From IMG/VR virus record IMGVR_UViG_2657244940_000020: a DNA stretch of 17,953 nucleotides. One strand, given 5' to 3'. Origin of the DNA: a virus. Its lineage: Duplodnaviria; Heunggongvirae; Uroviricota; Caudoviricetes. This document shows positions 1-17,953 of this stretch, in pieces. The notes under the pieces were generated by a model. The model was not told the DNA's origin. It saw only the letters and a program-made list of their open reading frames with translations, and searched no databases. The translations under genes and the position numbers were made by a program. The stretch's first letter is position 1, and every line of letters begins with the position of its first letter.

Positions 1-669
1 ATGTCTGAACAATTAGTCACACCTGAAAACGTCACCACGAAAGATGGAAAAATCAACCTGCTGGATCTCAACCGTCAGCAGATGCGGGAGTTTTTTAAAG
101 ATTTAGGTGAAAAACCCTTCCGCGCCGATCAGGTGATGAAGTGGATGTATCACTATTGCTGCGACAACTTTGATGAGATGACCGACATCAATAAAGTGTT
201 GCGCGGCAAACTGAAAGAGGTGGCGGAAATCCGTGCACCGGAAGTGGTTGAAGAACAGCGTTCATCTGACGGCACCATTAAATGGGCGATCGCCGTTGGC
301 GATCAGCGCGTTGAAACGGTATATATCCCGGAAGACGACCGTGCCACGCTCTGCGTCTCTTCGCAGGTGGGGTGTGCGCTGGAGTGTAAATTCTGTTCCA
401 CCGCCCAGCAGGGCTTTAACCGCAACCTGCGGGTATCGGAAATTATCGGCCAGGTGTGGCGTGCGGCGAAAATTGTCGGCGCAGCAAAAGTCACCGGTCA
501 GCGCCCAATCACTAACGTAGTGATGATGGGTATGGGCGAGCCGCTGCTCAACCTGAACAACGTCGTTCCGGCGATGGAAATCATGCTTGATGATTTCGGT
601 TTTGGCCTGTCAAAACGTCGCGTCACGCTTTCCACTTCCGGTGTGGTTCCGGCGCTGGATAAACTGGGT
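1..669 (+). pseudogene. rlmN: 5' fragment of rlmN (radical-SAM 23S rRNA/tRNA m2A methyltransferase), codons 1-223 only; C-terminal ~160 codons missing
   Basis: ORF 1..846 translation begins [23 protein letters not shown]... and contains the radical-SAM CxxxCxxC motif (CALECKFC); matches my memory of E. coli RlmN up to ...VVPALDKLG (nt 669), after which the sequence no longer resembles RlmN. Reading frame continues without stop to 846. Confidence 0.85.
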
Positions 670-846
670 CCAGTTTTTCCAGCCGTTTGGTCAGGGCATA
701 TTCTGCGCAACGATGTCTGTGATATCAGCCTGAACCTGCAACTGACGGAACGTGTGCTGGTCAGCACTGACGGCAGTGTGTCGAGTGTTGAAGCTGTAGC
801 GGAACCCGATGAACCTGAAGAAATGTGGACGGTGAAACGTGGCTGA
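670..846 (+). pseudogene. C-terminal remnant of a P2 R-like tail completion gene, fused in frame to the rlmN fragment; stop overlaps start of S
   Basis: Frame-1 translation [58 protein letters not shown] lies immediately upstream of and overlaps the S-like gene (GTG 839; stop TGA 844-846), the position gene R occupies in P2-like phages. Assignment from gene order and vague family resemblance only. Confidence 0.4.
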
Positions 847-3781: not shown

Positions 3782-5319
3782 GCACAAAATTTTATACCCT
3801 GCTAACGGATATTGGCGCGGCGAAACTTGCCAGCGCCGCCGCGCTCGGTGTGCCTTTAAAAATTACCCATATGGCGGTCGGCGATGGTGGCGGAACATTG
3901 CCAACGCCGGACGCAAAGCAGACAGCATTAGTAAATGAGAAACGCCGGGCTGCGCTGAATATGCTCTATATCGACCCGCAGAACAGCAGCCAGATTATTG
4001 CTGAACAGGTGATCCCTGAAAACGAGGGCGGTTGGTGGATACGTGAAGTGGGCCTGTTTGATGAATCAGGGGCATTGATTGCCGTGGGAAACTGCCCGGA
4101 AAGCTATAAGCCGCAACTGGCTGAAGGTAGCGGGCGCACTCAGACCGTGCGCATGGTGCTGATTACCAGCAGCACGGACAATATCACCCTGAAAATCGAC
4201 CCTGCTGTAGTGCTGTCAACCCGCAAGTATGTGGATGACAAGGCACTGGAGCTGAAGGTGTACGCGGATGATCAGATGGCAAAACATCTTGCCGCACCGG
4301 ACCCGCATTCACAGTATGCACCCAAAGAAAGTCCGACGTTTACCGGGACACCCAAAGCGCCAACGCCAGCAGCAGGGAATAACACCACGCAGATTGCGAC
4401 CACCGCGTTTGTTCAGGCGGCTCTGACGGCTCTTATTAATGGTGCGCCAGCCACGCTGGACACGCTGAAAGAAATAGCCGCAGCCATTAACAATGATCCG
4501 AATTTCAGTACCACCATTAACAATGCGCTGGCACAAAAAGCGCCGCTGTCGAGTCCAGCACTCACCGGAACGCCAACAGCACCTACTGCGGCACAGTCGG
4601 TCAACAATACACAGATTGCCACTACAGCTTTTGTGAAATCAGCGATTGCAGCAATGGTGGGTTCTGCACCCGCGGCACTGGATACACTGAACGAACTGGC
4701 GGCGGCACTGGGGAATGATCCGAACTTTGCCACGACAATGCTTAATGCGCTGGCAGGTAAACAACCGCTGGACAATACGCTTACCAATTTGAGTGGAAAG
4801 GATGTAGCTGGTCTTCTCGCATACCTTAGTTTGGGAGAAGGTTCAGCATTACCTGTTGGTGCGCCTGTTCCGTGGCCGTCAGCAACTCCACCAACTGGAT
4901 GGCTAAAATGCAATGGAGCAGCGTTTACCGCTTCTCAGTACCCCAAATTGGCTCAGGCCTATCCTGCACTCAGATTGCCTGATTTAAGAGGCGAATTTAT
5001 TCGTGGCTGGGATGACGGGCGCGGGGCTGATAGCGGGCGAGGTTTGCTTTCTGCTCAGGGTGCTATGTCATTCGATCACCGGCACTGGATTCCAACTTCA
5101 CCAAGTTCTGGCGGAGATGGTCCAATGACGGCTGTTTTTATAGATAACAATGCGTCAATGGCTTATTACCCGAACGGAACTAATGAATATAACCCAAACC
5201 CGTCAACTGGCACGGTATTGCAGACATATACCGCAAAGGCAACACTTGGTTCAAAAATGTTTGGTAGTGAAACGAGGCCGCGAAACGTTGCATTTAACTA
5301 CATTGTGAGGGCTGCATAA
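3778..5319 (+). CDS. H: Tail fibre protein (P2 gpH-like N-terminus; C-terminal ~160 aa lie inside the invertible segment), 513 aa
   Basis: ORF 3778..5319; N-terminus MSTKFYTLLTDIGAAKLA...MAVGDGGG...ESYKPQLAEGSG is the conserved gpH baseplate-attachment region; central tail-fibre repeat motif; C-terminus has a phage tail-collar-like motif (WLKCNGAAFTASQYPKLAQAY). Confidence 0.9.
   Translation: MSTKFYTLLTDIGAAKLASAAALGVPLKITHMAVGDGGGTLPTPDAKQTALVNEKRRAALNMLYIDPQNSSQIIAEQVIPENEGGWWIREVGLFDESGALIAVGNCPESYKPQLAEGSGRTQTVRMVLITSSTDNITLKIDPAVVLSTRKYVDDKALELKVYADDQMAKHLAAPDPHSQYAPKESPTFTGTPKAPTPAAGNNTTQIATTAFVQAALTALINGAPATLDTLKEIAAAINNDPNFSTTINNALAQKAPLSSPALTGTPTAPTAAQSVNNTQIATTAFVKSAIAAMVGSAPAALDTLNELAAALGNDPNFATTMLNALAGKQPLDNTLTNLSGKDVAGLLAYLSLGEGSALPVGAPVPWPSATPPTGWLKCNGAAFTASQYPKLAQAYPALRLPDLRGEFIRGWDDGRGADSGRGLLSAQGAMSFDHRHWIPTSPSSGGDGPMTAVFIDNNASMAYYPNGTNEYNPNPSTGTVLQTYTAKATLGSKMFGSETRPRNVAFNYIVRAA
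4330..4770 (+). repeat. Two tandem ~219-bp (73-codon) repeat units inside H (4330-4548 and 4552-4770)
   Basis: Protein units SPTFTGTPKAPT...NNTTQIATTAFV...APATLDTLKEIAAAINNDPNFSTTINNALAQKAPL and SPALTGTPTAPT...NNTQIATTAFV...APAALDTLNELAAALGNDPNFATTMLNALAGKQPL are separated by one codon; diverged at DNA level. Confidence 0.6.
4814..4839 (+). other. Left 26-bp DNA-invertase crossover site (hix/gix-like), inside the H coding sequence
   Basis: TTCTCGCATACC-TT-AGTTTGGGAGAA: two imperfect 12-bp inverted half-sites around central TT. It matches the reverse complement of the site at 6714-6739 at 20 of 26 positions, including an identical GTTTGGGAGAA arm. Confidence 0.7.
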
Positions 5320-5918
5320 TGGCACAGGCAAAATTAAACAACGAACTTATCGCCACAGAGGCAGGCGATATTACAGTATTTAACTATGATGACGAGACGC
5401 GAGAATACCTTTCTATATCTGTTGAATATCTGGCCGTGGGCGTAGGTATTCCAGCCAACTCATGCATTGACGCCCCCGGCGAGAGCAAAGAGGGTTTTGC
5501 TATTTGCCGGACAGCCGATTTTGCCGCCTGGGAATACGTCGCGGATCACCGTGGTGAAACGGTGTACAGCACTGAAACAGGCGAGCCGGAGATCGTTTCT
5601 TTGCCTGGTGAATACCCGGAAGGCACCACCACGCTGGCACCTGATACGCCTTACGATACGTGGAACGGTCGCGAGTGGGTGACAGATACGGAAGCGCAGA
5701 ACGCGGCGGACGTGGAAGCGGCGGAACAACAGAAAGCTGCGCTCCTGCTTGAGGCCCAGACAACGATCAGTCTCTGGCAGACAGAACTACAGTTAGGCAT
5801 TATCAGCGATGAAGATAAAGCTAGCCTGATCGCCTGGATGAGCTACATCAAAGCACTACAAGCCGTCGATATATCAACGGCTCCTGTTATTATCTGGCCT
5901 GTTCCTCCGGAGAGTTAG
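5319..5918 (+). CDS. G: Tail fibre assembly chaperone (P2 gpG / Tfa family), 199 aa
   Basis: ORF 5319..5918 directly after H (TAATG overlap); C-terminal ...STAPVIIWPVPPES motif of Tfa chaperones. Confidence 0.82.
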   Translation: MAQAKLNNELIATEAGDITVFNYDDETREYLSISVEYLAVGVGIPANSCIDAPGESKEGFAICRTADFAAWEYVADHRGETVYSTETGEPEIVSLPGEYPEGTTTLAPDTPYDTWNGREWVTDTEAQNAADVEAAEQQKAALLLEAQTTISLWQTELQLGIISDEDKASLIAWMSYIKALQAVDISTAPVIIWPVPPES

Positions 5919-6342
5919 GCCACTCGATATCTGGTGCGCTGGAGGTGTTTAAAACTTCCAGAGCATCCAGATAATCAAGCCACAAACCATACTGTTCAAG
6001 CTCATCGCCTTTCAGACGACCAATAGCGGCTTTACCGGGCCATTGCTTACTGTTCATGTATTCGTTGGCCTGGTGAATTAGTAGCTGTCTTTCTGATTCA
6101 GTAATTTCAATAAGTTCTTCATGCGTGGGTGGAGGAATATCTGCCCACGCAGGCAGCCCATCATCTCCGGCAATACGGATTTTTCCTTGTGGCGGTTCAT
6201 CCATAAACTCACTGATAATATTTTGATTTACTTCCTTAGCGTCTGATAAATCCCATCCCTCTGATTTATATTTATCAATCATATCCACAGGGAAAAAAGC
6301 ATTATGCCTTGCGCTATAAACATATTCGTTCATATAAATCAC
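5890..6342 (-). CDS. Alternative tail fibre assembly chaperone (G'), 150 aa
   Basis: Minus-strand ORF 5890..6342, C-terminus ...SSAPDIEWPNSPEEQAR parallels the G C-terminus; lies downstream of H'v on the minus strand; 3' end overlaps the 3' end of G by 29 nt. Confidence 0.78.
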   Translation of the reverse strand: MIYMNEYVYSARHNAFFPVDMIDKYKSEGWDLSDAKEVNQNIISEFMDEPPQGKIRIAGDDGLPAWADIPPPTHEELIEITESERQLLIHQANEYMNSKQWPGKAAIGRLKGDELEQYGLWLDYLDALEVLNTSSAPDIEWPNSPEEQAR

Positions 6343-6353
6343 CCTGAATAAAA

Positions 6354-6727
6354 TTACTCACCAACAGCCCACCAACTGTAATTCATCGATACCGTGTCGC
6401 TGGTTGATGACGTTCTGTAAGCAGAATTAAAGCCGGTTAACGTTGGGCCTTCTGCAGTCATCACGAACCCTCGCCCAGCGCCTAAAGGCGCACCTCCATC
6501 ACCAGAATGAGTAAGCATGGCGCAGTCCGCTTTTTTAGGGAAAGGGATAGGAAATGTAATCCTCATTGTTTGCGTCGATAATTTCGGCATAGCCTCACCT
6601 CGACCATATTGCAGAATTTTACCGTTTGGTAATTTCATCCATCCATCACCACTGGCAAAAGAAGCCATGTCCGGTATCTGATTTTCCCCTGTTCCCACCC
6701 CCCGTTTCGCTGCTTCTCCCAAACCAA
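6354..6727 (-). CDS. Alternative tail-fibre C-terminal cassette (H'v); has no start of its own and is expressed only after inversion fuses it to the H constant region
   Basis: Minus-strand open frame runs from the right crossover site to the stop at 6354 (...GLGEAAKRGVGTGENQIPDMASFASGDGWMKLPNGKILQYGRG...). It is in frame with the H constant part across the crossover dinucleotide. The ATG at 6767 in the ORF track lies outside the invertible segment and is probably not used. Confidence 0.72.
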
Positions 6728-6739
6728 CGTTTATGAAAA
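6714..6739 (+). other. Right 26-bp DNA-invertase crossover site (hix/gix-like)
   Basis: TTCTCCCAAACC-AA-CGTTTATGAAAA; resembles remembered hixL/gix/cix sites (TTnTCnnAAACC ... GGTTTnnGAnAA); inverted relative to the site at 4814-4839 with complementary central dinucleotide. Confidence 0.75.
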
Positions 6740-6794
6740 TGCAGAGATAACGGCTAACTGGCATCATCTCCGGTTTTTATTCAGGGGGATGATC

Positions 6795-7361
6795 ATGCTT
6801 ATTGGCTATGTACGCGTGTCAACAAATGACCAGAACACCGATTTGCAACGCAATGCACTGAACTGTGCGGGATGTGAGCGGATTTTTGAGGATAAAATCA
6901 GTGGCACCAAGTCCGACAGACCGGGGCTGAAAAAGCTGCTCAGGACACTATCGGCAGGAGACACGCTGGTTGTCTGGAAGCTGGACAGACTGGGGCGCAG
7001 TATGCGGCATCTTGTTACGCTGATAGAAGAGCTGCGCCAGCGTGGCGTGAATTTCCGAAGCCTGACTGACAGTATTGATACCAGCACCCCAATGGGCCGT
7101 TTCTTTTTTCATGTCATGGGTGCCCTGGCTGAAATGGAACGCGAACTGATAGTTGAACGTACCAGGGCGGGGCTGGCTGCAGCTCGTGCTAAAGGCAGAG
7201 TAGGTGGACGCCGTCCTAAGTTGACCAGCGAACAGTGGGCACAGATTGGGCGTTTACTCGAGGCCGGAGAATCAAGACAGCGTATTGCACTGATTTTTGA
7301 TGTAGGCGTTTCTACCATTTATCGAAAATTTCCGGCAAATAAGAACAATAAATCTCCCTGA
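6795..7361 (+). CDS. Serine-recombinase DNA invertase (Gin/Pin/Hin/Cin family), 188 aa
   Basis: MLIGYVRVSTNDQNTDLQRNAL...VVWKLDRLGRSMRHL...GRFFFHVMGALAEMERELI...GGRRPKLT closely matches remembered Gin/Pin N-terminal catalytic and C-terminal HTH regions. GGGGG at 6784-6788 sits 6 nt before ATG 6795; an in-frame ATG at 6789 is an alternative start. Confidence 0.9.
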   Translation: MLIGYVRVSTNDQNTDLQRNALNCAGCERIFEDKISGTKSDRPGLKKLLRTLSAGDTLVVWKLDRLGRSMRHLVTLIEELRQRGVNFRSLTDSIDTSTPMGRFFFHVMGALAEMERELIVERTRAGLAAARAKGRVGGRRPKLTSEQWAQIGRLLEAGESRQRIALIFDVGVSTIYRKFPANKNNKSP

Positions 7362-7503: not shown

Positions 7504-8676
7504 ATGGCTCAGGATTACCACCACGGGGTGCGCGTTGTTGAAGTCAACGAAGGCACCCGATCCATTACCACGGTGAGCACCGCCATCGTGGGTATGGTCT
7601 GCACGGGCGATGATGCCGATGCAAAAATGTTTCCTCTTAATAAACCCGTGCTGATCACTGATGTGCTGACTGCCAGCGGTAAAGCGGGTGAGTCAGGCAC
7701 GCTGGCTCGTTCGCTGGATGCCATCGCTGACCAGGCAAAACCCGTGACCGTTGTTGTGCGTGTGCCGCAGGGTGAAACGGAAGAAGAAACCACGACCAAT
7801 ATCATCGGAGCAGTGACCGCTGAAGGTAAAAAAACAGGCATGAAAGCCCTGTTATCTGCCCAGTCACAGCTCGGCGTTAAACCGCGCATTCTCGGCGTGC
7901 CAGGTCACGACACGAAGGCGGTAGCTACTGAGTTGCTGAGCGTGGCGCAAAGCCTGCGTGGATTTGCTTACCTGTCAGCGTATGGTTGCAAGACAGTGCA
8001 GGAAGCAATCACTTACCGTGAAAACTTCAGTCAGCGTGAAGGAATGCTGATCTGGCCCGACTTTACTGGCTGGGACACGGTGCTGAATGCCGAAGCAACG
8101 GCTTATGCCACCGCCCGTGCGCTTGGTCTGCGCGCCAAAATTGACGAGCAGACCGGATGGCACAAAAGCCTGTCCAACGTGGGCGTTAACGGTGTCACCG
8201 GAATTTCTGCTGATGTGTTCTGGGATCTGCAGGACCCGGCAACCGATGCGGGACTGCTGAACCAGAACGACGTCACCACCCTTATCCGCAAAGACGGTTT
8301 TCGCTTCTGGGGTTCCCGCTGCCTGAGTGATGACCCGCTCTTTGCCTTCGAAAACTACACCCGCACGGCGCAGGTGCTGACGGACACGATGGCAGAAGCG
8401 CACATGTGGGCGGTGGATAAACCGCTGAATCCGTCGCTGGCCCGCGACATTATCGAGGGTATCCGCGCCAAAATGCGCAGCCTGGTCAGTCAGGGCTATC
8501 TCATTGGTGGTGATTGCTGGCTGGATGAGTCGGTGAACGACAAAGACACGCTGAAAGCCGGAAAACTCACCATCGACTACGACTACACGCCAGTGCCGCC
8601 ACTTGAAAACCTGATGCTGCGTCAGCGCATCACCGATCAGTACCTGGTGAATTTCTCCAGCCAGGTCAGCGCGTAA
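7504..8676 (+). CDS. FI: Contractile tail sheath protein (P2 gpFI family), 390 aa
   Basis: ORF 7504..8676 with strong SD; size (P2 FI ~396 aa) and position before the tube gene. Confidence 0.9.
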
Positions 8677-8685
8677 GGGGACAAC

Positions 8686-9201
8686 ATGGCTTTACCACGC
8701 AAATTAAAACACCTGAACCTGTTTAATGACGGGAACAACTGGCAGGGGATCGTTGAGTCGCTGACGCTGCCGAAATTTACCCGCAAATATGAGAAGTATC
8801 GCGGCGGCGGAATGCCGGGTGCAGTGGATGTGGATCTGGGGCTGGATGACGGCGCACTGGATACGGAATTTTCCATTGGTGGTACTGAACTGCTGCTGTT
8901 TAAGCAGATGGGCAAAGCCACGGTAGATGGTATCCAGTTGCGCTTTACCGGCTCTATCCAGCGTGACGATACCGGGGAAGTGCAGGCCGTGGAGCTTGTG
9001 GTGCGTGGACGTCACAAAGAAGTGGATTCCGGCGAGTGGAAGACGGGCGAAAGCAACACCACCAAAGTGACCAGTACCAACAGCTACGCGAAGCTGACTA
9101 TAAATGGTGAGGTGCTCTATGAAGTGGACCTTATCAACATGGTGGAAATTGTGGACGGTGTGGACCTGATGGAAGCGCACCGCAACGCCCTCGGCCTCTG
9201 A
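8686..9201 (+). CDS. FII: Tail tube protein (P2 gpFII family), 171 aa
   Basis: ORF 8686..9201 directly after the sheath gene; size matches P2 FII (~172 aa). Confidence 0.88.
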   Translation: MALPRKLKHLNLFNDGNNWQGIVESLTLPKFTRKYEKYRGGGMPGAVDVDLGLDDGALDTEFSIGGTELLLFKQMGKATVDGIQLRFTGSIQRDDTGEVQAVELVVRGRHKEVDSGEWKTGESNTTKVTSTNSYAKLTINGEVLYEVDLINMVEIVDGVDLMEAHRNALGL

Positions 9202-9255
9202 TGTATCTGAACGGCGCGGGATACCGCGCCAGAACCCAATTTACAGGACAGCAAA

Positions 9256-9558
9256 ATGAGCGATAAGCAGACTGAAAAGACTATTCAACTGGATACCCCC
9301 ATCAAGCGCGGTAAAACAGAAATCACCGAAATTGTGCTGCGTAAACCGCAGTCCGGTGCGCTGCGCGGTACACGCCTGCAGGCCATTATGGATATGGATG
9401 TGAACGCGATGATGACCGTGATCCCCCGCATCTCCAGTCCGGCACTGACTGCACAGGAAATTGCAGAGATGGACCCGGCAGATCTCACTGCCATGTCGGT
9501 TGAGGTTGTCACTTTTTTGTTGAAGAAGTCGGTGCTTGCCGGTTTACCGACAGCCTGA
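9256..9558 (+). CDS. E: Tail assembly chaperone E (P2 gpE), 100 aa
   Basis: ORF 9256..9558 upstream of the tape measure gene; contains the T6G slippery site near its 3' end. Confidence 0.8.
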   Translation: MSDKQTEKTIQLDTPIKRGKTEITEIVLRKPQSGALRGTRLQAIMDMDVNAMMTVIPRISSPALTAQEIAEMDPADLTAMSVEVVTFLLKKSVLAGLPTA

Positions 9559-9692
9559 CGGTTGACGATCTGGTGGCTGATATCGCCACCATCTTTCACT
9601 GGCCGCCATCCGTTACTGACGTTATGCCGCTGACCGAAGTGCTGGAATGGCGGTATAAAGTGATTCAGAGAAGCGGGGCCAACGATGAGTGA
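9256..9692 (+). CDS. Tail assembly chaperone E+E' made by programmed -1 frameshift at TTTTTTG (9513-9519); predicted ~145 aa
   Basis: Slippery heptamer T TTT TTG at 9513-9519 in the E frame. The -1 frame is open from there (FFVEEVGACRFTDSLTVDDLVADIATIFHWPPSVTDVMPLTEVLEWRYKVIQRSGANDE*) to TGA 9690-9692, overlapping the T start codon. Same arrangement as P2 E/E+E'. Confidence 0.65.
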
Positions 9693-12600
9693 TAATAACC
9701 TGCGCCTGCAGGTCATTCTTAATGCGGTTGACAAACTCACCCGCCCATTCCGTGCTGCACAGGCCAGTTCGAAAGAGCTGGCTGGCGCAATTCAGAATAC
9801 CCGAAACAGCCTCAAAGAACTAAATAAGCAGGCTGGCAGAATTGATGAATTTCGCAAGACGCGCTCGCAACTAGCCATAACAGCCAACAACCTGAACGCA
9901 GCCCGCGAAGAGGCGGCAAAACTCGCCACACAATTTGCTGCCACTAACAGGCCAACCGCCGCGCAGGCAAAGTTATTCAGTCAGGCCAAAACACGAGTAC
10001 AGGAACTTCAGCAGACCTATAACGGCTTGTTGGGGGCGGTCCAGAGACAACGTCAGGCACTTAAAGAATCAGGGATTGATACCAGACAACTCAGTAGTGC
10101 CCAGCGAGAACTTAAGAAAAATGCCGAAGAAACTCGTCAGGCACTGGAGGGCCAGCAAAAAGCACTTAAACGTCTGGGTGAACAACAGGCACGGATGAAC
10201 GCTGCCAGAGAACAATACTCAAGACGGCTTGAAGTGCGCGATCGCATCGCAGGAGCCGGAGCCACCACCACGGCTGCAGGGCTGGCAATGGGCGCGCCAG
10301 TGATGGCGGCGGTAAAAAGCTATACCAGCATGGAAGATGCCATGAAAGGTGTGGCAAAGCAGGTCAATGGTCTGCGTGACGATAATGGCAACCGCACTGT
10401 GCGTTTTTACGAAATGCAGGATGCCATCAAAGCTGCCAGTGAACAGCTGCCAATGGAAAACGGTGCTGTGGACTTCGCCGCACTGGTTGAAGGTGGTGCG
10501 CGCATGAATGTGGCAAACCCTGACGACAGCTGGGAGGACCAGAAACGTGACCTGCTGGCCTTCGCCAGTACGGCAGCAAAGGCGGCAACAGCCTTTGAGC
10601 TGCCAGCGGATGAACTGTCAGAAAGTCTGGGGAAAATCGCCCAGCTCTACAAAATACCAACCCGCAATATTGAACAGCTCGGTGATGCGCTGAACTATCT
10701 GGATGATAACGCTATGTCGAAAGGGGCAGACATCATTGATGTCATGCAACGCCTGGGCGGTGTGGCTGATCGTCTGGATTATCGTAAAGCGGCGGCGCTG
10801 GGTTCCACCTTCCTGACACTGGGGGCTGCGCCGGAGGTCGCTGCCAGTGCTGCCAACGCGATGGTGCGTGAATTGTCCATTGCCACCATGCAAAGCAAGA
10901 GTTTCTTTGAAGGGATGAATCTGCTGAAACTCAATCCTGAAGTGATTGAAAAGCAGATGACGAAGGATGCGATGGGAACTATCCAGCGTGTGCTGGAGAA
11001 GGTGAACGCACTGCCGCAGGACAAGCGTCTGTCTGCCATGACCATGTTGTTTGGTAAAGAGTTTGGCGATGACGCGGCGAAACTGGCAAACAACCTGCCG
11101 GAACTACAGCGCCAGCTAAAACTGACAGCGGGCAATGATGCGCTCGGTTCCATGCAGAAAGAATCCGACATCAACAAGGACTCACTTTCTGCTCAGTGGT
11201 TGCTGGTTAAAACCGGAGCGCAGAATACCTTCAGCAGCCTGGGCGAAACGCTGCGCCAGCCGCTGATAGATATTCTGTACACGGTGAAAAGCATCACGGG
11301 GGCGTTGCGTCGCTGGGTGGAAGCTAACCCTGAACTGACGGGTACACTGATGAAAGTAGCCGCGGTTGTGGCTGCGGTTACTGTCGGCCTCGGCACCTTA
11401 GCGGTGGCGCTGGCTGCAGTGCTGGGGCCGCTGGCAGTGATCCGTCTGGGATTCTCTGTGCTGGGTATCAAAACGTTACCTTCCGTTACGGCAGCAGTAA
11501 CTCGAACCAGCAGCGCGTTGTCCTGGCTGGCTGGCGCACCACTGATACTGCTGCGACGCGGGCTTGCTTCATCGGGCAACGCTGCGGGTTTACTTACTGC
11601 ACCGTTGTCATCTTTGCGCCGCACGGCATCACTGACGGGAAATGTCTTGAAAACTGTAGCAGGTGCGCCAGTTGCACTTTTGCGGTCTGGATTATCCGGT
11701 TTACGTGCTGTTGCTGTGATGTTTATGAATCCTCTGGCGGTACTGCGCGGTGGACTGGCAGCCGCAGGCGCGGTGCTGCGAGTGCTTGCATCTGGTCCGC
11801 TGGCGATGCTGCGCGTTGCCCTGTATGCCATATCTGGTCTGTTAGGTGCTCTGCTTAGTCCGATAGGTCTTGTGGTTACTGCACTGGCGGGTGTGGCGCT
11901 GGTTGTCTGGAAATACTGGCAACCCATCACCGCATTTCTCGGTGGCGTGGTGGAAGGATTCAAAGCGGCGGCAGGTCCCATCAGTGCAGCGTTTGAACCA
12001 CTTAAGCCCGTGTTCCAGTGGATTGGCGACAAAGTGCAGGCGCTGTGGGGCTGGTTTACTGATCTGCTGACGCCTGTTAAGTCGACCTCTGCCGAACTGC
12101 AGAGCGCAGCGGCAATGGGGCGACGATTCGGGGAGGCACTGGCGGAAGGGCTGAATATGGTCATGCATCCGCTGGACTCCCTGAAATCCGGCGTTTCCTG
12201 GTTGCTGGATAAACTCGGCATTGTCAGTAAAGAGGCTGCAAAGGCGAAACTGCCGGAAAGTGTGACGCGTCAGCAACCTGCGACGGTGAATGCAGACGGT
12301 AAAGTGATGATGCCATCGGGTGGTTTTCCGTCATGGGGATATAGCTTTGCGGGGATGTATGACAGCGGCGGCTATATCCCGCGCGGGCAGTTTGGCATCG
12401 TCGGTGAAAACGGGCCGGAAATTGTCAACGGCCCGGCAAACGTGACCAGCCGGAGAAATACCGCTGCACTGGCTGCGGTTGTTGCCGGAATGATGGGCGT
12501 TGCTGCCGCGCCTACAGAGCTTCCACCGTTGCACCCTTTGGCACTTCCCGCGAAAGGCGGCGAAGCGATGGTGAGTCGTGCAGCCACTGTGCCGCCCATT

Positions 12601-12762
12601 CAACGGATTGAGGCACCGACGCAGATCATCATTCAGACGCAGCCAGGACAAAGTGCGCAGGATATTGCGCGGGAGGTGGCCCGCCAGCTTGATGAACGTG
12701 AACGCAGGCTGAAGGCAAAAGCCAGGAGTAACTACAGCGATCAGGGGGGATACGACGCATGA
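9685..12762 (+). CDS. T: Tail tape measure protein (P2 gpT family), 1025 aa
   Basis: ORF 9685..12762; long alpha-helical N-terminal region, hydrophobic segment with periodic L-R-x-G-L repeats, position after E/E'; start overlaps E' stop. Confidence 0.9.
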   Translation: MSDNNLRLQVILNAVDKLTRPFRAAQASSKELAGAIQNTRNSLKELNKQAGRIDEFRKTRSQLAITANNLNAAREEAAKLATQFAATNRPTAAQAKLFSQAKTRVQELQQTYNGLLGAVQRQRQALKESGIDTRQLSSAQRELKKNAEETRQALEGQQKALKRLGEQQARMNAAREQYSRRLEVRDRIAGAGATTTAAGLAMGAPVMAAVKSYTSMEDAMKGVAKQVNGLRDDNGNRTVRFYEMQDAIKAASEQLPMENGAVDFAALVEGGARMNVANPDDSWEDQKRDLLAFASTAAKAATAFELPADELSESLGKIAQLYKIPTRNIEQLGDALNYLDDNAMSKGADIIDVMQRLGGVADRLDYRKAAALGSTFLTLGAAPEVAASAANAMVRELSIATMQSKSFFEGMNLLKLNPEVIEKQMTKDAMGTIQRVLEKVNALPQDKRLSAMTMLFGKEFGDDAAKLANNLPELQRQLKLTAGNDALGSMQKESDINKDSLSAQWLLVKTGAQNTFSSLGETLRQPLIDILYTVKSITGALRRWVEANPELTGTLMKVAAVVAAVTVGLGTLAVALAAVLGPLAVIRLGFSVLGIKTLPSVTAAVTRTSSALSWLAGAPLILLRRGLASSGNAAGLLTAPLSSLRRTASLTGNVLKTVAGAPVALLRSGLSGLRAVAVMFMNPLAVLRGGLAAAGAVLRVLASGPLAMLRVALYAISGLLGALLSPIGLVVTALAGVALVVWKYWQPITAFLGGVVEGFKAAAGPISAAFEPLKPVFQWIGDKVQALWGWFTDLLTPVKSTSAELQSAAAMGRRFGEALAEGLNMVMHPLDSLKSGVSWLLDKLGIVSKEAAKAKLPESVTRQQPATVNADGKVMMPSGGFPSWGYSFAGMYDSGGYIPRGQFGIVGENGPEIVNGPANVTSRRNTAALAAVVAGMMGVAAAPTELPPLHPLALPAKGGEAMVSRAATVPPIQRIEAPTQIIIQTQPGQSAQDIAREVARQLDERERRLKAKARSNYSDQGGYDA

Positions 12763-14365: not shown

Positions 14366-14431
14366 GTTTTCAAAATGGAATAATGCGGTATCATTATTGT
14401 GAATTTAGCAAAAATGGGGAGAACTCGAAAA

Positions 14432-14650
14432 ATGATGATTTGCCCACTGTGTGGAAGTGCCGCCCATACTCGCAGCAGTTTTCAGGTATCTTCATTGACC
14501 AAAGAGCGTTACAACCAGTGCCAGAACATTAACTGCAGCCATACTTTTGTTACCCATGAAACTTTTGTTCGTTCGATTGCAACGCCAAAAGAGTCAAATC
14601 CGGTTCAGCCGCATCCAATGAAATCAGAACAGGTGGCGCTCTCTCTTTGA
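14432..14650 (+). CDS. ogr: Ogr/Delta-family zinc-finger late transcription activator, 72 aa
   Basis: MMICPLCGSAAHTRSS...ERYNQCQNINCSHTF has the CxxC-N22-CxxxxC zinc-finger spacing and the size of P2 Ogr (72 aa). ORF track starts at 14399, but the ATG at 14432 gives the expected length and N-terminus. Confidence 0.85.
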   Translation: MMICPLCGSAAHTRSSFQVSSLTKERYNQCQNINCSHTFVTHETFVRSIATPKESNPVQPHPMKSEQVALSL

Positions 14651-14728
14651 CGCTGCCGCCATTTTGTCGCCATCGTTAAAAAACAGTGTTTCTAACATCA
14701 TGATTTTAAACAGCTTAAATTTCAGGCA

Positions 14729-14809
14729 ACAAAAAACCCATCAACCTTGAACCGAAATGGCGGGGTTGATGGGCTCCACAAAATGGGGACATCAAAGAAA
14801 AGCAGTGGC
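14729..14809 (-). ncRNA. rybB: RybB small regulatory RNA (sigma-E dependent, Hfq-binding), ~81 nt including intrinsic terminator
   Basis: Reverse complement of 14729-14809 reads GCCACTGCTTTTCTTTGATGTCCCCATTTTGTGGAGCCCATCAACCCCGCCATTTCGGTTCAAGGTTGATGGGTTTTTTGTT, matching my memory of E. coli RybB. It ends in a 10-bp stem (14737-14746 / 14764-14773) followed by a U-run on the minus strand. Confidence 0.85.
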
Positions 14810-14845
14810 ACTAATTAAGACTGATGCCCTGCGGAAAAGTTCTGC
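14810..14845 (-). promoter_or_regulatory. rybB sigma-E promoter (-35 GAACTT, -10 GTCTTA)
   Basis: Minus-strand sequence upstream of the RybB 5' end: GAACTT (plus 14837-14842) and GTCTTA (plus 14816-14821) with ~15-16 nt spacing, fitting the sigma-E consensus GGAACTT-N16-TCnnA. Confidence 0.6.
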
Positions 14846-14886
14846 GGTTGTGCAAAAAAAATTTCATTTTCAGGGCAACTTCAGTT

Positions 14887-16572
14887 TTATCCTAATCCTG
14901 GCCATACCATGACGATGATTGTCCCTGCCAGCGTCAGCAGGACGTTGGCGATTGCATAGGTGCCCGCATAGCCCAGCGCCGGGATGTTACTGCGAGCTGT
15001 ATCACTGATGATCTCCATTGCCGGCGCGCAGGTGCGTGCGCCCATCATTGCGCCGAACAACAGTGCGCGGTTCATTCGCAATACATAAGCACCGAACAAG
15101 AAACAGATAACCACTGGCACAAGACTGACAATCAATCCGGCAATCAACATCTGACCGCCAATCGCGCCCAGGCCGTTATTAATACCGCTACCGGCGCTCA
15201 GACCAACGCCTGCCATAAACACCATTAAGCCGAACTCTTTCACCATGCTTAATGCACCCTGCGGAATGTAACCGAAGGTCGGGTGGTTAGCGCGCATAAA
15301 GCCCAGCATAATTCCGGCGAATAACAACCCGGCAGCGTTCCCCATGCCGAAACTGAATGTGCTGAACTGGAAGGTGATCATCCCGATCATCAGCCCAATA
15401 ACAAAGAAGGCGCAGAATGCCAGCAAGTCAGTGACCTGGCTGTGAATCGAGATAAAGCCGATGCGATCGGCGATGGTTTTTACGCGACGGGCATCGCCGC
15501 TGACTTGTAAAACGTCACCTTTGTTAAGCACGACGTTGTCATCTATCGGCATCTCAATCTGGCTACGAATGACGCGGTTAAGGAAGCAACCGTGATCGGT
15601 CAACTTCAGTTGTGCGAGACGTTTGCCCACGGCGTTATGGTTTTTAACGACCACTTCTTCAGTGACGATACGCATGTCGAGAAGGTCACGATCGAAAACT
15701 TCTTTGCCGTTACGGAAGCTGGGATCGAGTCGTGCGTGGGCGTCGGGATAGCCTACCAACGCTATTTCATCGCCCATTTGTAGCACAGCATCACCGTCTG
15801 GATTCGCCAGAATCCCGTTACGTCGAATACGTTCAATGTAGCAGCCAGTTTGTCGATAAATACCCAGTTCACGCAGATTTTTGCCGTCGGTCCAGGCCAC
15901 CAGCTCCGGGCCGACGCGGTAGGCGCGGATCACCGGTAAATAAACCTTACGGTTGGCATCAGTGTCCAGGCCACGTTCGCGGGCGATTTGCTGGGCGCTG
16001 GTCTGTAAGTCCTGATGCTGCAATTTCGGCAAGTAACGCGCACCAACAATCAAACTCACCAGACCGATTAAATAGGTTAAGGCATACCCGAGGCTCAGAT
16101 TATCCAGTGCCAGTGAGAGTTGCCTGCTTTCCATGCCGGAATGACGCAGTGTATCGCCAGCACCGACCAGAACCGGTGTCGACGTCATAGAGCCAGCTAA
16201 CATACCGGCCGTCAGGCCAATATCCCAGCCAAACAGCTTACCTAACCCTAAGGCGATCACCAGCGCACTGCCAACCATCACCAGTGCTAACATTAGGTAA
16301 TTTTTCCCATCGCGAAAAAAAATGGAAAAAAAGTTCGGTCCGGCTTCGACCCCGACGCAGAAAATAAACAGCATAAAGCCAAGATTAAGCGCGTCGGTGT
16401 TAATGCTGAAATGTTGTTGGCCTAATAACAGCGATACGACTAAAACGCCAATGGAATTACCCAGTTGGATCGAACCAAGTCGTAATTTCCCGAGACATAG
16501 CCCAAGCGCGAGGACCACAAATAATAACAGAATGTAATTCCCATTTAACAATTCGGCGACGTTTATATTCAC
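14887..16572 (-). CDS. ybjL: Putative transporter YbjL (AAE family, two RCK_C/TrkA-C domains), 561 aa
   Basis: ORF 14887..16572 ([25 protein letters not shown]...VWPGLG) matches remembered E. coli YbjL in full length. Confidence 0.92.
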
Positions 16573-16841
16573 GGAGGCTAACTTCTTGTTTACTAGTAAG
16601 CTGTTGAAAGAAATGGTAATTTACGATAATGTTTTTTACCAGAATTCAGGGCGCAGATTCATTCAGCGCACCTAAACGATAGTAAAGTAACAATATATTT
16701 TACTAGTGTAATCACATTAGGTATCAACGGCTATATGAATTGCGTTGGCCTATATTAGCATGGAATGCGAAGCGGCTTTATCTTACTGAACGCCACACTG
16801 GCGAAAAATGTGTTCGATAGACGCAGTGTCAGGAGGAACGA

Positions 16842-17219
16842 GTGAAACATAAACAACGTTGGGCGGGGGCAATCTGCTGTTTTGTCCTCTTCATTGTGGT
16901 GTGTCTTTTTCTGGCGACGCACATGAAAGGCGCTTTTCGGGCTGCCGGGCATCCTGAAATCGGTTTGCTATTTTTCATTCTTCCTGGTGCAGTTGCCAGC
17001 TTCTTTTCACATCGTAGAGAAGTCCTGAAACCTCTGTTTGGCGCAATGCTGGCGGCACCCTGTTCGATGCTCATTATGCGGCTGTTTTTTTCACCGACGC
17101 GCTCATTCTGGCAAGAGCTGGCATGGTTATTAAGTGCGGTGTTCTGGTGTGCGCTGGGGGCATTGTGTTTCTTATTTATCAGTAGTTTGTTTAAACCACA
17201 GCACAGAAAAAATCAATAA
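16842..17219 (+). CDS. ybjM: Inner membrane protein YbjM, 125 aa, GTG start
   Basis: ORF 16842..17219 (MKHKQRWAGAICCFVLFIVVCLFLATHMKG...), hydrophobic, preceded by AGGAGG at 16831-16836; divergent from ybjL as in E. coli. Confidence 0.85.
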   Translation: MKHKQRWAGAICCFVLFIVVCLFLATHMKGAFRAAGHPEIGLLFFILPGAVASFFSHRREVLKPLFGAMLAAPCSMLIMRLFFSPTRSFWQELAWLLSAVFWCALGALCFLFISSLFKPQHRKNQ

Positions 17220-17238
17220 AGCCCTCAACGCGAGGGCT
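17220..17238. terminator. Bidirectional intrinsic terminator between the convergent ybjM and grxA genes
   Basis: Hairpin AGCCCTC-aacgc-GAGGGCT at 17220-17238; on the minus strand it is followed by TTTATTGATTTTTT (a good terminator for grxA); weaker T-tract on the plus strand. Confidence 0.6.
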
Positions 17239-17248
17239 TGTCAGACGA

Positions 17249-17506
17249 TCAGGCGTCCAGATTCTCTTTCACCCATGCAGCAAAATCGGTATAGCCGCCG
17301 ATATGTTGCTGATCGACAAAAATCTGCGGCACGGTTTCTACGGGTTTACCTGCCTTTTGTTGTAGATCTTCTTTAGTGATCCCTTCCGCACGAATATCTA
17401 CATACTGATACTGGAAATCATCGCGCTCATTGCTCAATTTCTCGGCCAGATCTTTTGCACGCACACAGTAAGGGCAACCCGGACGACCAAAAATAACGGT
17501 TTGCAT
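17249..17506 (-). CDS. grxA: Glutaredoxin 1, 85 aa
   Basis: MQTVIFGRPGCPYCVRAKDLAEKL...VDQQHIGGYTDFAAWVKENLDA with the CPYC active site. The ORF track extends 5 codons upstream (17521), but the GrxA N-terminus is MQTVIFGR. Confidence 0.92.
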   Translation of the reverse strand: MQTVIFGRPGCPYCVRAKDLAEKLSNERDDFQYQYVDIRAEGITKEDLQQKAGKPVETVPQIFVDQQHIGGYTDFAAWVKENLDA

Positions 17507-17665
17507 TATTTCTCTCCTCATAGATTTATGCCTGTAATGATCACGCTAAAATGTATTCGCTGAAAGTAGGTTTAACCTGTTGCATTAATTGCTAAAAGCT
17601 ATAACTGTTAAACACAATGCAGTGAAAAGTTTTAGACTGAAGGCTCACTTTGCAGAGGGAAGCGT

Positions 17666-17953
17666 ATGCGCGCGATCGGTAAATTGCCTAAAAGCGTGTT
17701 GATACTGGAATTTATCGGAATGATGTTGCTGGCGGTGGCGCTGCTGTCGGTAAGCGACTCCCTGTCGCTACCTGAGCCATTTTCTCGGCCAGAAGTGCAG
17801 ATTCTGATGATTTTTCTCGGTGTTTTGCTCATGATTCCCGCTGCGGTGGTGGTTATTCTTCAGGTGGCAAAACGTCTTGCCCCACAGCTGATGAACCATC
17901 CACCGCAATATTCACGTTCAGAAAGAGAAAAAGATAATGACGCCAACCATTGA
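17666..17953 (+). CDS. ybjC: Small inner-membrane protein YbjC (DUF1418), 95 aa; stop codon is the last triplet of the window
   Basis: ORF 17666..17953 (MRAIGKLPKSVLILEFIGMMLLAVALL...), divergent from grxA as in the E. coli ybjC-nfsA locus. Confidence 0.85.
   Translation: MRAIGKLPKSVLILEFIGMMLLAVALLSVSDSLSLPEPFSRPEVQILMIFLGVLLMIPAAVVVILQVAKRLAPQLMNHPPQYSRSEREKDNDANH

What the first reader, a model, noticed from the sequence alone, without database searches (positions are those of the whole stretch)
9500..9692. Programmed -1 frameshift signal (TTTTTTG) producing E+E'
The heptamer T TTT TTG at 9513-9519 sits 12 codons before the E stop, and the -1 frame is open for a further 57 codons, ending at TGA 9690-9692 inside the T start region (ATGAGTGA). 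This is the conserved tail-chaperone frameshift of P2 (and, functionally, lambda G/GT), and its preservation suggests the tail assembly pathway is still under selection.
Basis: partly seen in the sequence, partly recalled or inferred. Interest (0 to 1): 0.45.

Follow-up and report, generated by a model that had tools for sequence, protein, structure and literature searches.

The report
P2-type tail chaperone frameshift site
This is the well-known "slippery" sequence that lets P2-like phages make two tail-assembly chaperone proteins (E and the longer E+E') from one gene start; it is real and intact here, but ordinary.

Summary
T TTT TTG lies at 9513-9519 in zero-frame phase of gene E (9256-9558, 100 aa), 12 codons before its stop. 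The -1 frame is open for 57 codons to TGA 9690-9692, inside the tape-measure start ATGAGTGA. The predicted 145-aa fusion carries Pfam Phage_TAC_7 followed by Phage_P2_GpE, and aligns without gaps across the shift point to P2 E+E' (48% identity). P2 has the same heptamer, in the same phase, at the homologous column, annotated as a -1 frameshift. In 125 distinct relatives the heptamer is TTTTTTG (121) or TTTTTTA (4). The third-codon-position pattern of variable sites switches from frame 0 to frame -1 at the heptamer. The -1 frame has a stop 5 codons upstream and no start codon before 9573, so its conserved first 18 codons are reachable only by frameshifting. The feature is already known, and the sequence is 99-100% identical to sequenced Elveevirus-type phages. 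Two caveats apply. Selection is shown for the phage lineage, not for this copy, whose prophage is cut off inside gene R at an odd rlmN/ubiJ junction. A weak downstream hairpin (9528-9551) is only a candidate stimulator. Public records mis-annotate E' as a separate 39-aa gene.

The parts
9256..9558 (+). Gene E (zero-frame product, 100 aa), a tail assembly chaperone
   Evidence: ORF. Pfam PF10109 Phage_TAC_7, E=1e-18, residues 9-88. phrog_103 'tail', E=2e-42.
9513..9519 (+). Slippery heptamer T TTT TTG (X XXY YYZ in E phase), the -1 frameshift site
   Evidence: Same heptamer and phase as the annotated frameshift site of P2. TTTTTTG in 121 and TTTTTTA in 4 of 125 distinct relatives. Falls at the homologous F-L column in 16 of 17 Peduoviridae fusions.
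9519..9692 (+). E' extension read in the -1 frame (57 codons plus TGA). With E residues 1-88 it gives the 145-aa E+E' protein, with junction ...VVTFL|VEEVG...
   Evidence: PF06528 Phage_P2_GpE, E=1.5e-17, at residues 107-143 of the fusion. Gapless 48% identity to P2 E+E'. Variable sites sit at -1-frame third positions.
9501..9503 (+). TGA that closes the -1 frame 5 codons upstream of the shift site
   Evidence: There is no ATG, GTG or TTG in the -1 frame between this stop and 9573.
9519..9558 (+). Zone translated in both frames (E C-terminal tail and the start of E')
   Evidence: Among 125 relatives, 11 sites vary here: 6 at the -1-frame third position and 3 at the frame-0 third position.
9528..9551 (+). 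Candidate weak stimulatory hairpin (GUCGGU(G)...(U)ACCGAC) starting 8 nt after the heptamer. Unproven.
   Evidence: -6 to -10 kcal/mol. 96% of cells paired in 30 variants, with one covarying pair (UA 15, CG 8, UG 5). Not present in P2.
9502..9505 (+). Shine-Dalgarno-like GAGG, 7 nt upstream of the heptamer. A speculative 5' stimulator.
   Evidence: G9504 is a synonymous third position that does not change in the properly aligned variants, while neighbouring third positions do. This is confounded by coding for the conserved E/K-V-V motif.
9573..9692 (+). 39-aa 'GpE family phage tail protein' CDS as annotated in public records. This is an annotation artefact covering the distal part of E'.
   Evidence: The conserved -1-frame coding extends 18 codons upstream of this GTG.
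9685..12762 (+). Gene T (tape measure, 1025 aa). Its ATG overlaps the E+E' stop in ATGAGTGA.
   Evidence: PF10145.
8686..9201 (+). Gene FII (tail tube), the upstream neighbour that defines the canonical tube - chaperone - tape-measure order
   Evidence: PF04985, E=6e-60.

Best explanation
This is the programmed -1 ribosomal frameshift site of a P2-like (Peduoviridae, Elveevirus-type) tail operon. Most ribosomes translate E (9256-9558) to its stop and make the 100-aa chaperone. A minority behave differently when peptidyl-tRNA-Phe sits on UUU 9514-9516 and Leu-tRNA sits on UUG 9517-9519. Both tRNAs slip back one base onto UUU UUU (9513-9518), and decoding resumes at GUU 9519 in the -1 frame. This yields the 145-aa E+E' protein: 88 shared residues, then 57 residues carrying the GpE domain, ending at TGA 9690-9692 on top of the tape-measure start codon. 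By analogy with P2 E/E+E' and lambda G/GT, the two products act in a fixed ratio as chaperones for the tape measure T during tail assembly. Shown here: the sequence anatomy, the homology, and the selection on both frames. Inferred: the slippage itself, its efficiency, and the chaperone role.
For: The anatomy is exact. PF10109 lies in frame 0 and PF06528 only in the -1 extension. The fusion aligns without gaps to P2 E+E', 48% identity over 139 aa, E=2e-50, straight across the junction. The P2 record annotates the same T TTT TTG in the same phase as the 'site of -1 translational frameshift', with a 57-codon extension ending on the T start. Of 17 diverse Peduoviridae, 14 have TTTTTT(G/C/T) at the homologous column; this counts RSY1, which one search confirmed after one search missed it. 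The other three have different X XXY YYZ heptamers (CCCTTTC, AAATTTT, GGGAAAG). In 125 distinct relatives at roughly 85-100% identity the heptamer is never lost: TTTTTTG in 121 and TTTTTTA in 4. Upstream of the heptamer, 71 of 102 variable sites are frame-0 third positions. Downstream of the E stop, 31 of 50 are -1-frame third positions. Among the 42 closest relatives, all 26 variable sites upstream of the heptamer are frame-0 third positions. The -1 frame has a stop 5 codons upstream and no start codon before 9573. The literature reports that P2 makes E (91 aa) and E+E' (142 aa) by -1 frameshifting at TTTTTTG, conserved in P2-like phages (PMC3091744, citing Christie 2002 and Xu 2004).
Against: There is no direct evidence of the fusion protein or of shift efficiency for this sequence. 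No strong 3' stimulator was found: folding gives z = -1.75, and Rfam has no match. A homopolymeric T6 run does not by itself distinguish ribosomal slippage from RNA-polymerase slippage. The prophage in the window is truncated, so this copy may never be expressed productively.
Confidence: 0.9

Rival explanations
1. E' is an independent small gene. Public annotations list a 39-aa 'GpE family phage tail protein' starting at GTG 9573, and on this view no frameshift is needed.
For: PGAP and several phage records annotate exactly this CDS. phrog_6416 models a 39-aa protein.
Against: The 18 -1-frame codons upstream of GTG 9573 (9519-9572) are conserved at protein level with P2 E' (VEEVGACRF..SLTVDDLVAD versus VAELGAVTF..NLSVDDLMAD). 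Their variable sites are -1-frame third positions (9524, 9542, 9551, 9566, 9572). No Shine-Dalgarno-like sequence precedes 9573 (upstream CTGACGGTTGACGATCTG). The -1 ORF opens only 5 codons before the slippery site. In P2 the fusion is the annotated, experimentally based product.
Confidence: 0.03
2. The frame change is made by RNA polymerase, not the ribosome. Transcriptional slippage on the T6 run would add one U to a fraction of mRNAs, giving an E+E' with F-F-V instead of F-L-V at the junction.
For: The site is a homopolymeric run, and slippage on A/T runs is documented for other bacterial and phage genes (review PMC5009743). Nothing computed here separates the two routes for this sequence.
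Against: Six bases is short for efficient slippage, on general knowledge. The conserved unit is the phased heptamer including the 7th base (G, or A in 4 variants, both compatible with tandem tRNA re-pairing). Three related phages have heteropolymeric X XXY YYZ sites (CCCTTTC, AAATTTT, GGGAAAG), two of them (CCCTTTC, AAATTTT) at the same column, that cannot support polymerase slippage but do fit ribosomal tandem slippage.
Confidence: 0.06
3. The signal is intact but idle. It sits in a decaying prophage remnant lacking head, lysis, replication and integrase genes. Its preservation reflects recent acquisition, not ongoing selection in this host.
For: Window 1-668 is host rlmN, 669-699 is a 31-bp piece of ubiJ, and phage homology begins at 698 inside gene R. 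The E/E' region is 100% identical to IMG/VR locus L055, 99.8% to a complete circular 37-kb element, and 99.3% to phage Cartapus, so there has been no time for decay.
Against: All tail genes from S to D, and ogr, are full length. The left junction is found in none of 5,426 complete E. coli genomes nor in GTDB representatives, and may be an assembly chimera, in which case the prophage could be complete. This reading does not contradict the mechanism; it only limits the 'still under selection' inference.
Confidence: 0.3

Closest known systems
Bacteriophage P2 genes E and E+E' (FETUD tail operon; Christie et al. 2002, as cited in PMC3091744)
   Same: The slippery heptamer T TTT TTG is the same, in the same phase, at the same alignment column (…GFL|VAE…). 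The -1 extension is 57 codons. The stop overlaps the T start (ATGAGTAA in P2, ATGAGTGA here). The gene order is FII-E-T-U-D-ogr. The Pfam pair is PF10109 + PF06528. The fusions share 48% identity without gaps.
   Different: E is 100 aa rather than 91 aa, with 12 rather than 6 codons after the site. The tape measure is 1025 aa versus 815 aa in P2. A weak hairpin 8 nt downstream is present here and in its clade but not in P2.
Elveevirus, Felsduovirus and Kapieceevirus phages and prophages (Escherichia phage Cartapus, Klebsiella phage 4LV2017, Salmonella RE-2010/Fels-2 type, E. coli CFT073 prophage at ybjL)
   Same: Nucleotide identity over the E/E' region is 82-99.8%. The heptamer, the E length (99-100 aa), the extension and the hairpin region are the same.
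   Different: These records annotate E and a separate 39-aa 'GpE' CDS instead of the frameshift product. The prophage copy in the window is truncated at its left end.
Lambda G/GT and the general tail-assembly-chaperone frameshift of long-tailed phages (Levin 1993; Xu, Hendrix and Duda 2004)
   Same: [quoted passage not shown] They are thought to be needed in a fixed ratio and to be absent from virions (PMC5009743).
   Different: No sequence-family relationship was detected; only PF10109 and PF06528 were hit. Lambda uses G GGA AAG. P2-like phages are contractile-tailed.

Membership tests
P2-type E/E+E' tail chaperone frameshift (Peduoviridae) | The gene lies between tail tube (FII) and tape measure (T) in a FI-FII-E-T-U-D operon | tested here: met
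   Pfam assignments of the neighbours: sheath 7504-8676, tube 8686-9201, tape measure 9685-12762, GpU, GpD, Ogr.
P2-type E/E+E' tail chaperone frameshift (Peduoviridae) | The zero-frame product belongs to the gpE chaperone family (PF10109 Phage_TAC_7) | tested here: met
   E=1e-18, 67.5 bits against a 25-bit cut-off.
P2-type E/E+E' tail chaperone frameshift (Peduoviridae) | The -1 extension carries the GpE domain (PF06528) and is homologous to P2 E' | tested here: met
   E=1.5e-17, 63.2 bits against a 23-bit cut-off, residues 107-143 of the fusion. Gapless alignment to P2 E+E'.
P2-type E/E+E' tail chaperone frameshift (Peduoviridae) | An X XXY YYZ slippery heptamer in zero-frame phase at the position homologous to the P2 site | tested here: met
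   T TTT TTG at 9513-9519, compared with P2 locus 679-685. Same alignment column.
P2-type E/E+E' tail chaperone frameshift (Peduoviridae) | The -1 ORF has no initiation of its own upstream of the conserved region | tested here: met
   TGA at 9501-9503. The first start-like codon in the -1 frame is GTG 9573, with no Shine-Dalgarno sequence.
P2-type E/E+E' tail chaperone frameshift (Peduoviridae) | Purifying selection acts on the heptamer and on the -1 frame downstream of it | tested here: met
   Heptamer retained in 125 of 125 variants. Third-position periodicity switches frame at the site.
P2-type E/E+E' tail chaperone frameshift (Peduoviridae) | The fusion protein is actually produced at a low, fixed ratio, and both products are essential for tail assembly | not testable with these tools
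   Known for P2 only from the literature. No expression data exist for this sequence.
Lambda G/GT chaperone family (sequence membership) | Sequence homology to lambda gpG/gpT families | tested here: not met
   The Pfam scan of E and the fusion returned only PF10109 and PF06528. The resemblance is functional and positional only.
-1 PRF sites with a 3' RNA stimulator (dnaX or IS type) | A stable stem-loop or pseudoknot 5-9 nt downstream, supported by covariation | tested here: inconclusive
   A 6-7-bp hairpin at 9528-9551 with an 8-nt spacer, only -6 to -10 kcal/mol, z = -1.75. One covarying pair, in a doubly coding region. Absent in P2. No Rfam match.

The most novel reading that the evidence does not exclude
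In the Elveevirus/Felsduovirus/Kapieceevirus clade the P2-type site may not be 'naked', as reported for P2. It may be tuned by two flanking elements: a small hairpin 8 nt downstream (9528-9551), kept through a U-A to U-G to C-G exchange even though both changes alter one of the two overlapping proteins, and an invariant Shine-Dalgarno-like GAGG 7 nt upstream. These would set a clade-specific E:E+E' ratio, perhaps matched to the longer (1025-aa) tape measure.
Probability: 0.15. Interest if true: 0.3.

Novelty: already known. Interest (0 to 1): 0.1.

Why it matters
It matters little for new biology. This is a textbook recoding site in a sequence nearly identical to phages already deposited. Its practical value is for annotation. 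RefSeq/PGAP and many phage records split the locus into E plus a free-standing 39-aa 'GpE family' gene. The comparative evidence here shows the real second product is the 145-aa frameshift fusion. The phase switch of synonymous variation at the heptamer is a clean, reusable computational signature for calling such sites.

Tried and rejected
NCBIfam gave no hit for E, the fusion or the 39-aa ORF. Rfam gave no match at E<=1 in 9200-9800. The PDB sequence search found no solved relative. The primary paper (Christie 2002) is not held in the library, so the experimental basis is cited second-hand from PMC3091744.

A strong 3' stimulator was looked for and not found. Folds of 81 and 171 nt give z = -1.75 and -2.18. 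P2 folds no better than shuffles and has no hairpin at the same spacing. The one clade-specific hairpin has a single covarying pair, so I do not claim it.

The RSY1 'single fused ORF' at first looked like a relative without a frameshift. It is an annotation of the open -1 frame in a GC-rich genome, and TTTTTTG is present there too.

The second heptamer that leads out of its ORF (G GGG GGA at 12744, into U) was considered as a T-U frameshift. I rejected it as most likely the ribosome-binding site of U, 8-9 nt before ATG 12759.

A search for the rlmN/ubiJ/R junction in GTDB genomes found nothing.

Full report
**Observation.** The sequence shows six Ts at 9513-9518 followed by G at 9519. The E ORF runs from ATG 9256 to TGA 9556-9558, which places the heptamer in the classic phase ACT-TTT-TTG, that is T TTT TTG. 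Twelve sense codons follow before the E stop. Read from 9519, the -1 frame is open for 57 codons and stops at TGA 9690-9692. That stop lies inside ATGAGTGA, where ATG 9685 starts the 1025-aa tape-measure ORF.

**Is it more than chance?** The 15 + strand phage ORFs of the window hold 4,179 codons and only 13 in-phase X XXY YYZ heptamers. Eleven of these lead into -1 frames that stop well inside their own gene. Only two lead out. One is the E site. The other is G GGG GGA at 12744, which sits 8-9 nt before the ATG of gene U and is best read as U's ribosome-binding site. The -1 frame at the E site is closed by TGA 9501-9503 just five codons upstream. It contains no ATG, GTG or TTG until GTG 9573.

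**What the products are.** E (100 aa) matches Pfam PF10109, Phage_TAC_7, 'tail assembly chaperone proteins E, or 41 or 14' (E=1e-18). The 145-aa frameshift fusion adds PF06528, Phage_P2_GpE (E=1.5e-17), at residues 107-143. PHROGs places both parts in 'tail' families. The neighbours are sheath FI (7504-8676), tube FII (8686-9201), tape measure T, then U, D and ogr. This is the P2 FI-FII-E-T-U-D-ogr order.

**Comparison with P2.** The P2 reference record annotates E, E+E' (a joined CDS) and a 'site of -1 translational frameshift'. Its sequence shows T TTT TTG in the same phase, followed by a 57-codon -1 extension whose stop overlaps the T start. The window's fusion aligns to P2 E+E' over 139 residues without a single gap, straight through the junction (…VVTFL|VEEVGACRF… versus …VVGFL|VAELGAVTF…), at 48% identity and E=2e-50. 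Two differences are minor: E continues 12 codons past the site here against 6 in P2, and the tape measure is longer.

**Wider family.** I compared 17 Peduoviridae-type loci from Escherichia, Salmonella, Klebsiella, Erwinia, Burkholderia, Ralstonia, Pseudomonas, Vibrio, Mannheimia, Shewanella, Zymomonas, Acidovorax and a Microcystis phage.
- Fourteen carry TTTTTT(G/C/T) at the homologous F-L/F-F column.
- Three carry other canonical slippery heptamers: CCCTTTC, AAATTTT and GGGAAAG.
- The heteropolymeric variants argue that the family's mechanism is tandem tRNA slippage on the ribosome rather than polymerase stuttering.
- Ralstonia phage RSY1, annotated with one long ORF, turned out to be an annotation of the open -1 frame. 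It also has TTTTTTG.

**Selection.** Three scans of IMG/VR gave 240 related loci. Among 125 distinct, gaplessly alignable E/E' sequences (about 85-100% identical), the heptamer is TTTTTTG in 121 and TTTTTTA in 4. TTTTTTA is still X XXY YYZ, synonymous in E and V-to-I in E'. None has lost the heptamer.
- Upstream of the heptamer, 71 of 102 variable sites are frame-0 third positions.
- Downstream of the E stop, 31 of 50 are third positions of the -1 frame.
- In the 36-nt doubly coding zone, 6 of 11 favour the -1 frame.
- In the 42 closest variants the switch is sharper still: all 26 variable sites upstream of the heptamer are frame-0 third positions.

Variable sites at 9524, 9542, 9551, 9566 and 9572 are -1-frame third positions that lie upstream of GTG 9573. 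The -1 frame is therefore translated from the heptamer, not from that GTG.

**Annotation point.** Public records, including RefSeq CFT073, the circular element p13P477T-2, phage Cartapus, RE-2010 and several Klebsiella phages, list E and then a separate 39-aa 'GpE family phage tail protein' at the equivalent of 9573-9692. The evidence above shows this is the distal part of E+E'.

**Mechanism.**
- Shown: the anatomy, the homology, and the selection on both frames.
- Inferred from the established simultaneous-slippage model and from P2: with tRNA-Phe on UUU 9514-9516 (P site) and tRNA-Leu on UUG 9517-9519 (A site), both slip to UUU UUU 9513-9518. GUU 9519 is read next, giving F-L-V at the junction.
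- From the literature: P2 makes E (91 aa) and E+E' (142 aa) this way, and P2-like phages conserve the site (PMC3091744). In lambda, the analogous G and GT products bind the tape measure and recruit tail-tube subunits, in a ratio set by the shift frequency (PMC5009743).
- Not measurable here: efficiency and expression.

**Stimulatory elements.** Rfam has nothing here. Folding the 81 nt after the site gives z = -1.75. The recurrent element is a small hairpin, GUCGGU(G)…(U)ACCGAC at 9528-9551, starting 8 nt after the heptamer, with an energy of -6 to -10 kcal/mol across variants.
- On 30 distinct variants, 96% of cells pair, against 15-69% for slid controls.
- One pair covaries (U-A 15, C-G 8, U-G 5), although each change alters one of the two overlapping proteins.
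- This is a single pair, probably a single event, in a doubly constrained region.
- P2 has no equivalent, and the literature reports none for P2 or the Burkholderia relatives.

I therefore list the hairpin as a candidate only. The same status applies to a Shine-Dalgarno-like GAGG 7 nt upstream, whose synonymous third base does not change in the properly aligned variants. That motif also encodes a conserved E/K-V-V motif.

**The 'still under selection' clause.** The lineage is clearly under purifying selection, but this copy cannot be judged. Its E/E' region is 100% identical to IMG/VR locus L055, 99.8% to a complete circular 37-kb P2-like element, and 99.3% to phage Cartapus. The prophage in the window is also not complete.
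- Bases 1-668 are the 5' part of host rlmN at 100% identity.
- Bases 669-699 are a 31-bp exact copy of an internal piece of ubiJ.
- From 698 the sequence is the middle of tail-completion gene R, 99.9% identical to the CFT073 prophage that lies between rcdA and ybjL.
- No complete E. coli genome has this junction, and no GTDB representative contains the exact 56-base junction sequence.

The junction is either a real rearrangement with templated filler or an assembly chimera. All tail genes from S to D, and ogr, are full length.

**Verdict.** The feature is the already-known P2 E/E+E' programmed -1 frameshift, in a sequence nearly identical to deposited phages. Interest is low. The only mildly new points are the mis-annotation of E' in public records and a weak, clade-specific candidate hairpin.

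Noticed in passing
window 1-846 (junction at 668-699): The left end of the prophage is a three-part chimera read as one ORF: the rlmN 5' part (1-668, 100% identical to E. coli), a 31-bp exact piece of ubiJ (669-699), then the middle of P2-like gene R (698 onward). The junction is absent from 5,426 complete E. coli genomes, and the exact 56-base junction sequence is absent from GTDB representatives. It is either a real rearrangement with templated filler or an assembly chimera. Integrase, repressor, replication, capsid and lysis genes are missing from this side.
   Followed up: partly
window 4814-7361: An invertible tail-fibre (host-range) segment. Inverted repeats at 4814-4840 and 6713-6739 (TTCTCCCAAACC-type crossover sites) enclose the 3' part of H, gene G, and oppositely oriented alternative G' (5890-6342) and H' C-terminal (6354-6767) cassettes. 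A Hin/Gin/Cin-type serine invertase follows (6789-7361, PF00239 + HTH_7). The CFT073 relative has an acyltransferase at this position instead.
   Followed up: partly
window 12744-12762: G GGG GGA lies in phase 3 codons before the stop of tape-measure gene T, and the -1 frame there is the U reading frame (ATG 12759). Formally this is a T-U frameshift configuration, but it is most likely just U's Shine-Dalgarno sequence.
   Followed up: no
window 9573-9692; L001, L002, L084, L085, L100: RefSeq/PGAP and many phage records annotate the distal part of E' as a free-standing 39-aa 'GpE family phage tail protein' and omit the frameshift fusion. This is a systematic annotation artefact across this clade.
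   Followed up: yes
L089 352-822 (Ralstonia phage RSY1): The annotated 156-aa 'tail protein' is the -1 frame read through from an upstream pseudo-start (an Arg/Ala-rich nonsense N-terminus). The real E frame and a TTTTTTG at L089 649-655 are present.
   Followed up: yes
window 14650-17953: The right prophage end is normal: ogr (14399-14650), then host ybjL (-), ybjM, grxA (-) and ybjC, the same attachment region as the CFT073 P2-like prophage. The window starts exactly at the rlmN ATG and ends exactly at the ybjC stop.
   Followed up: partly
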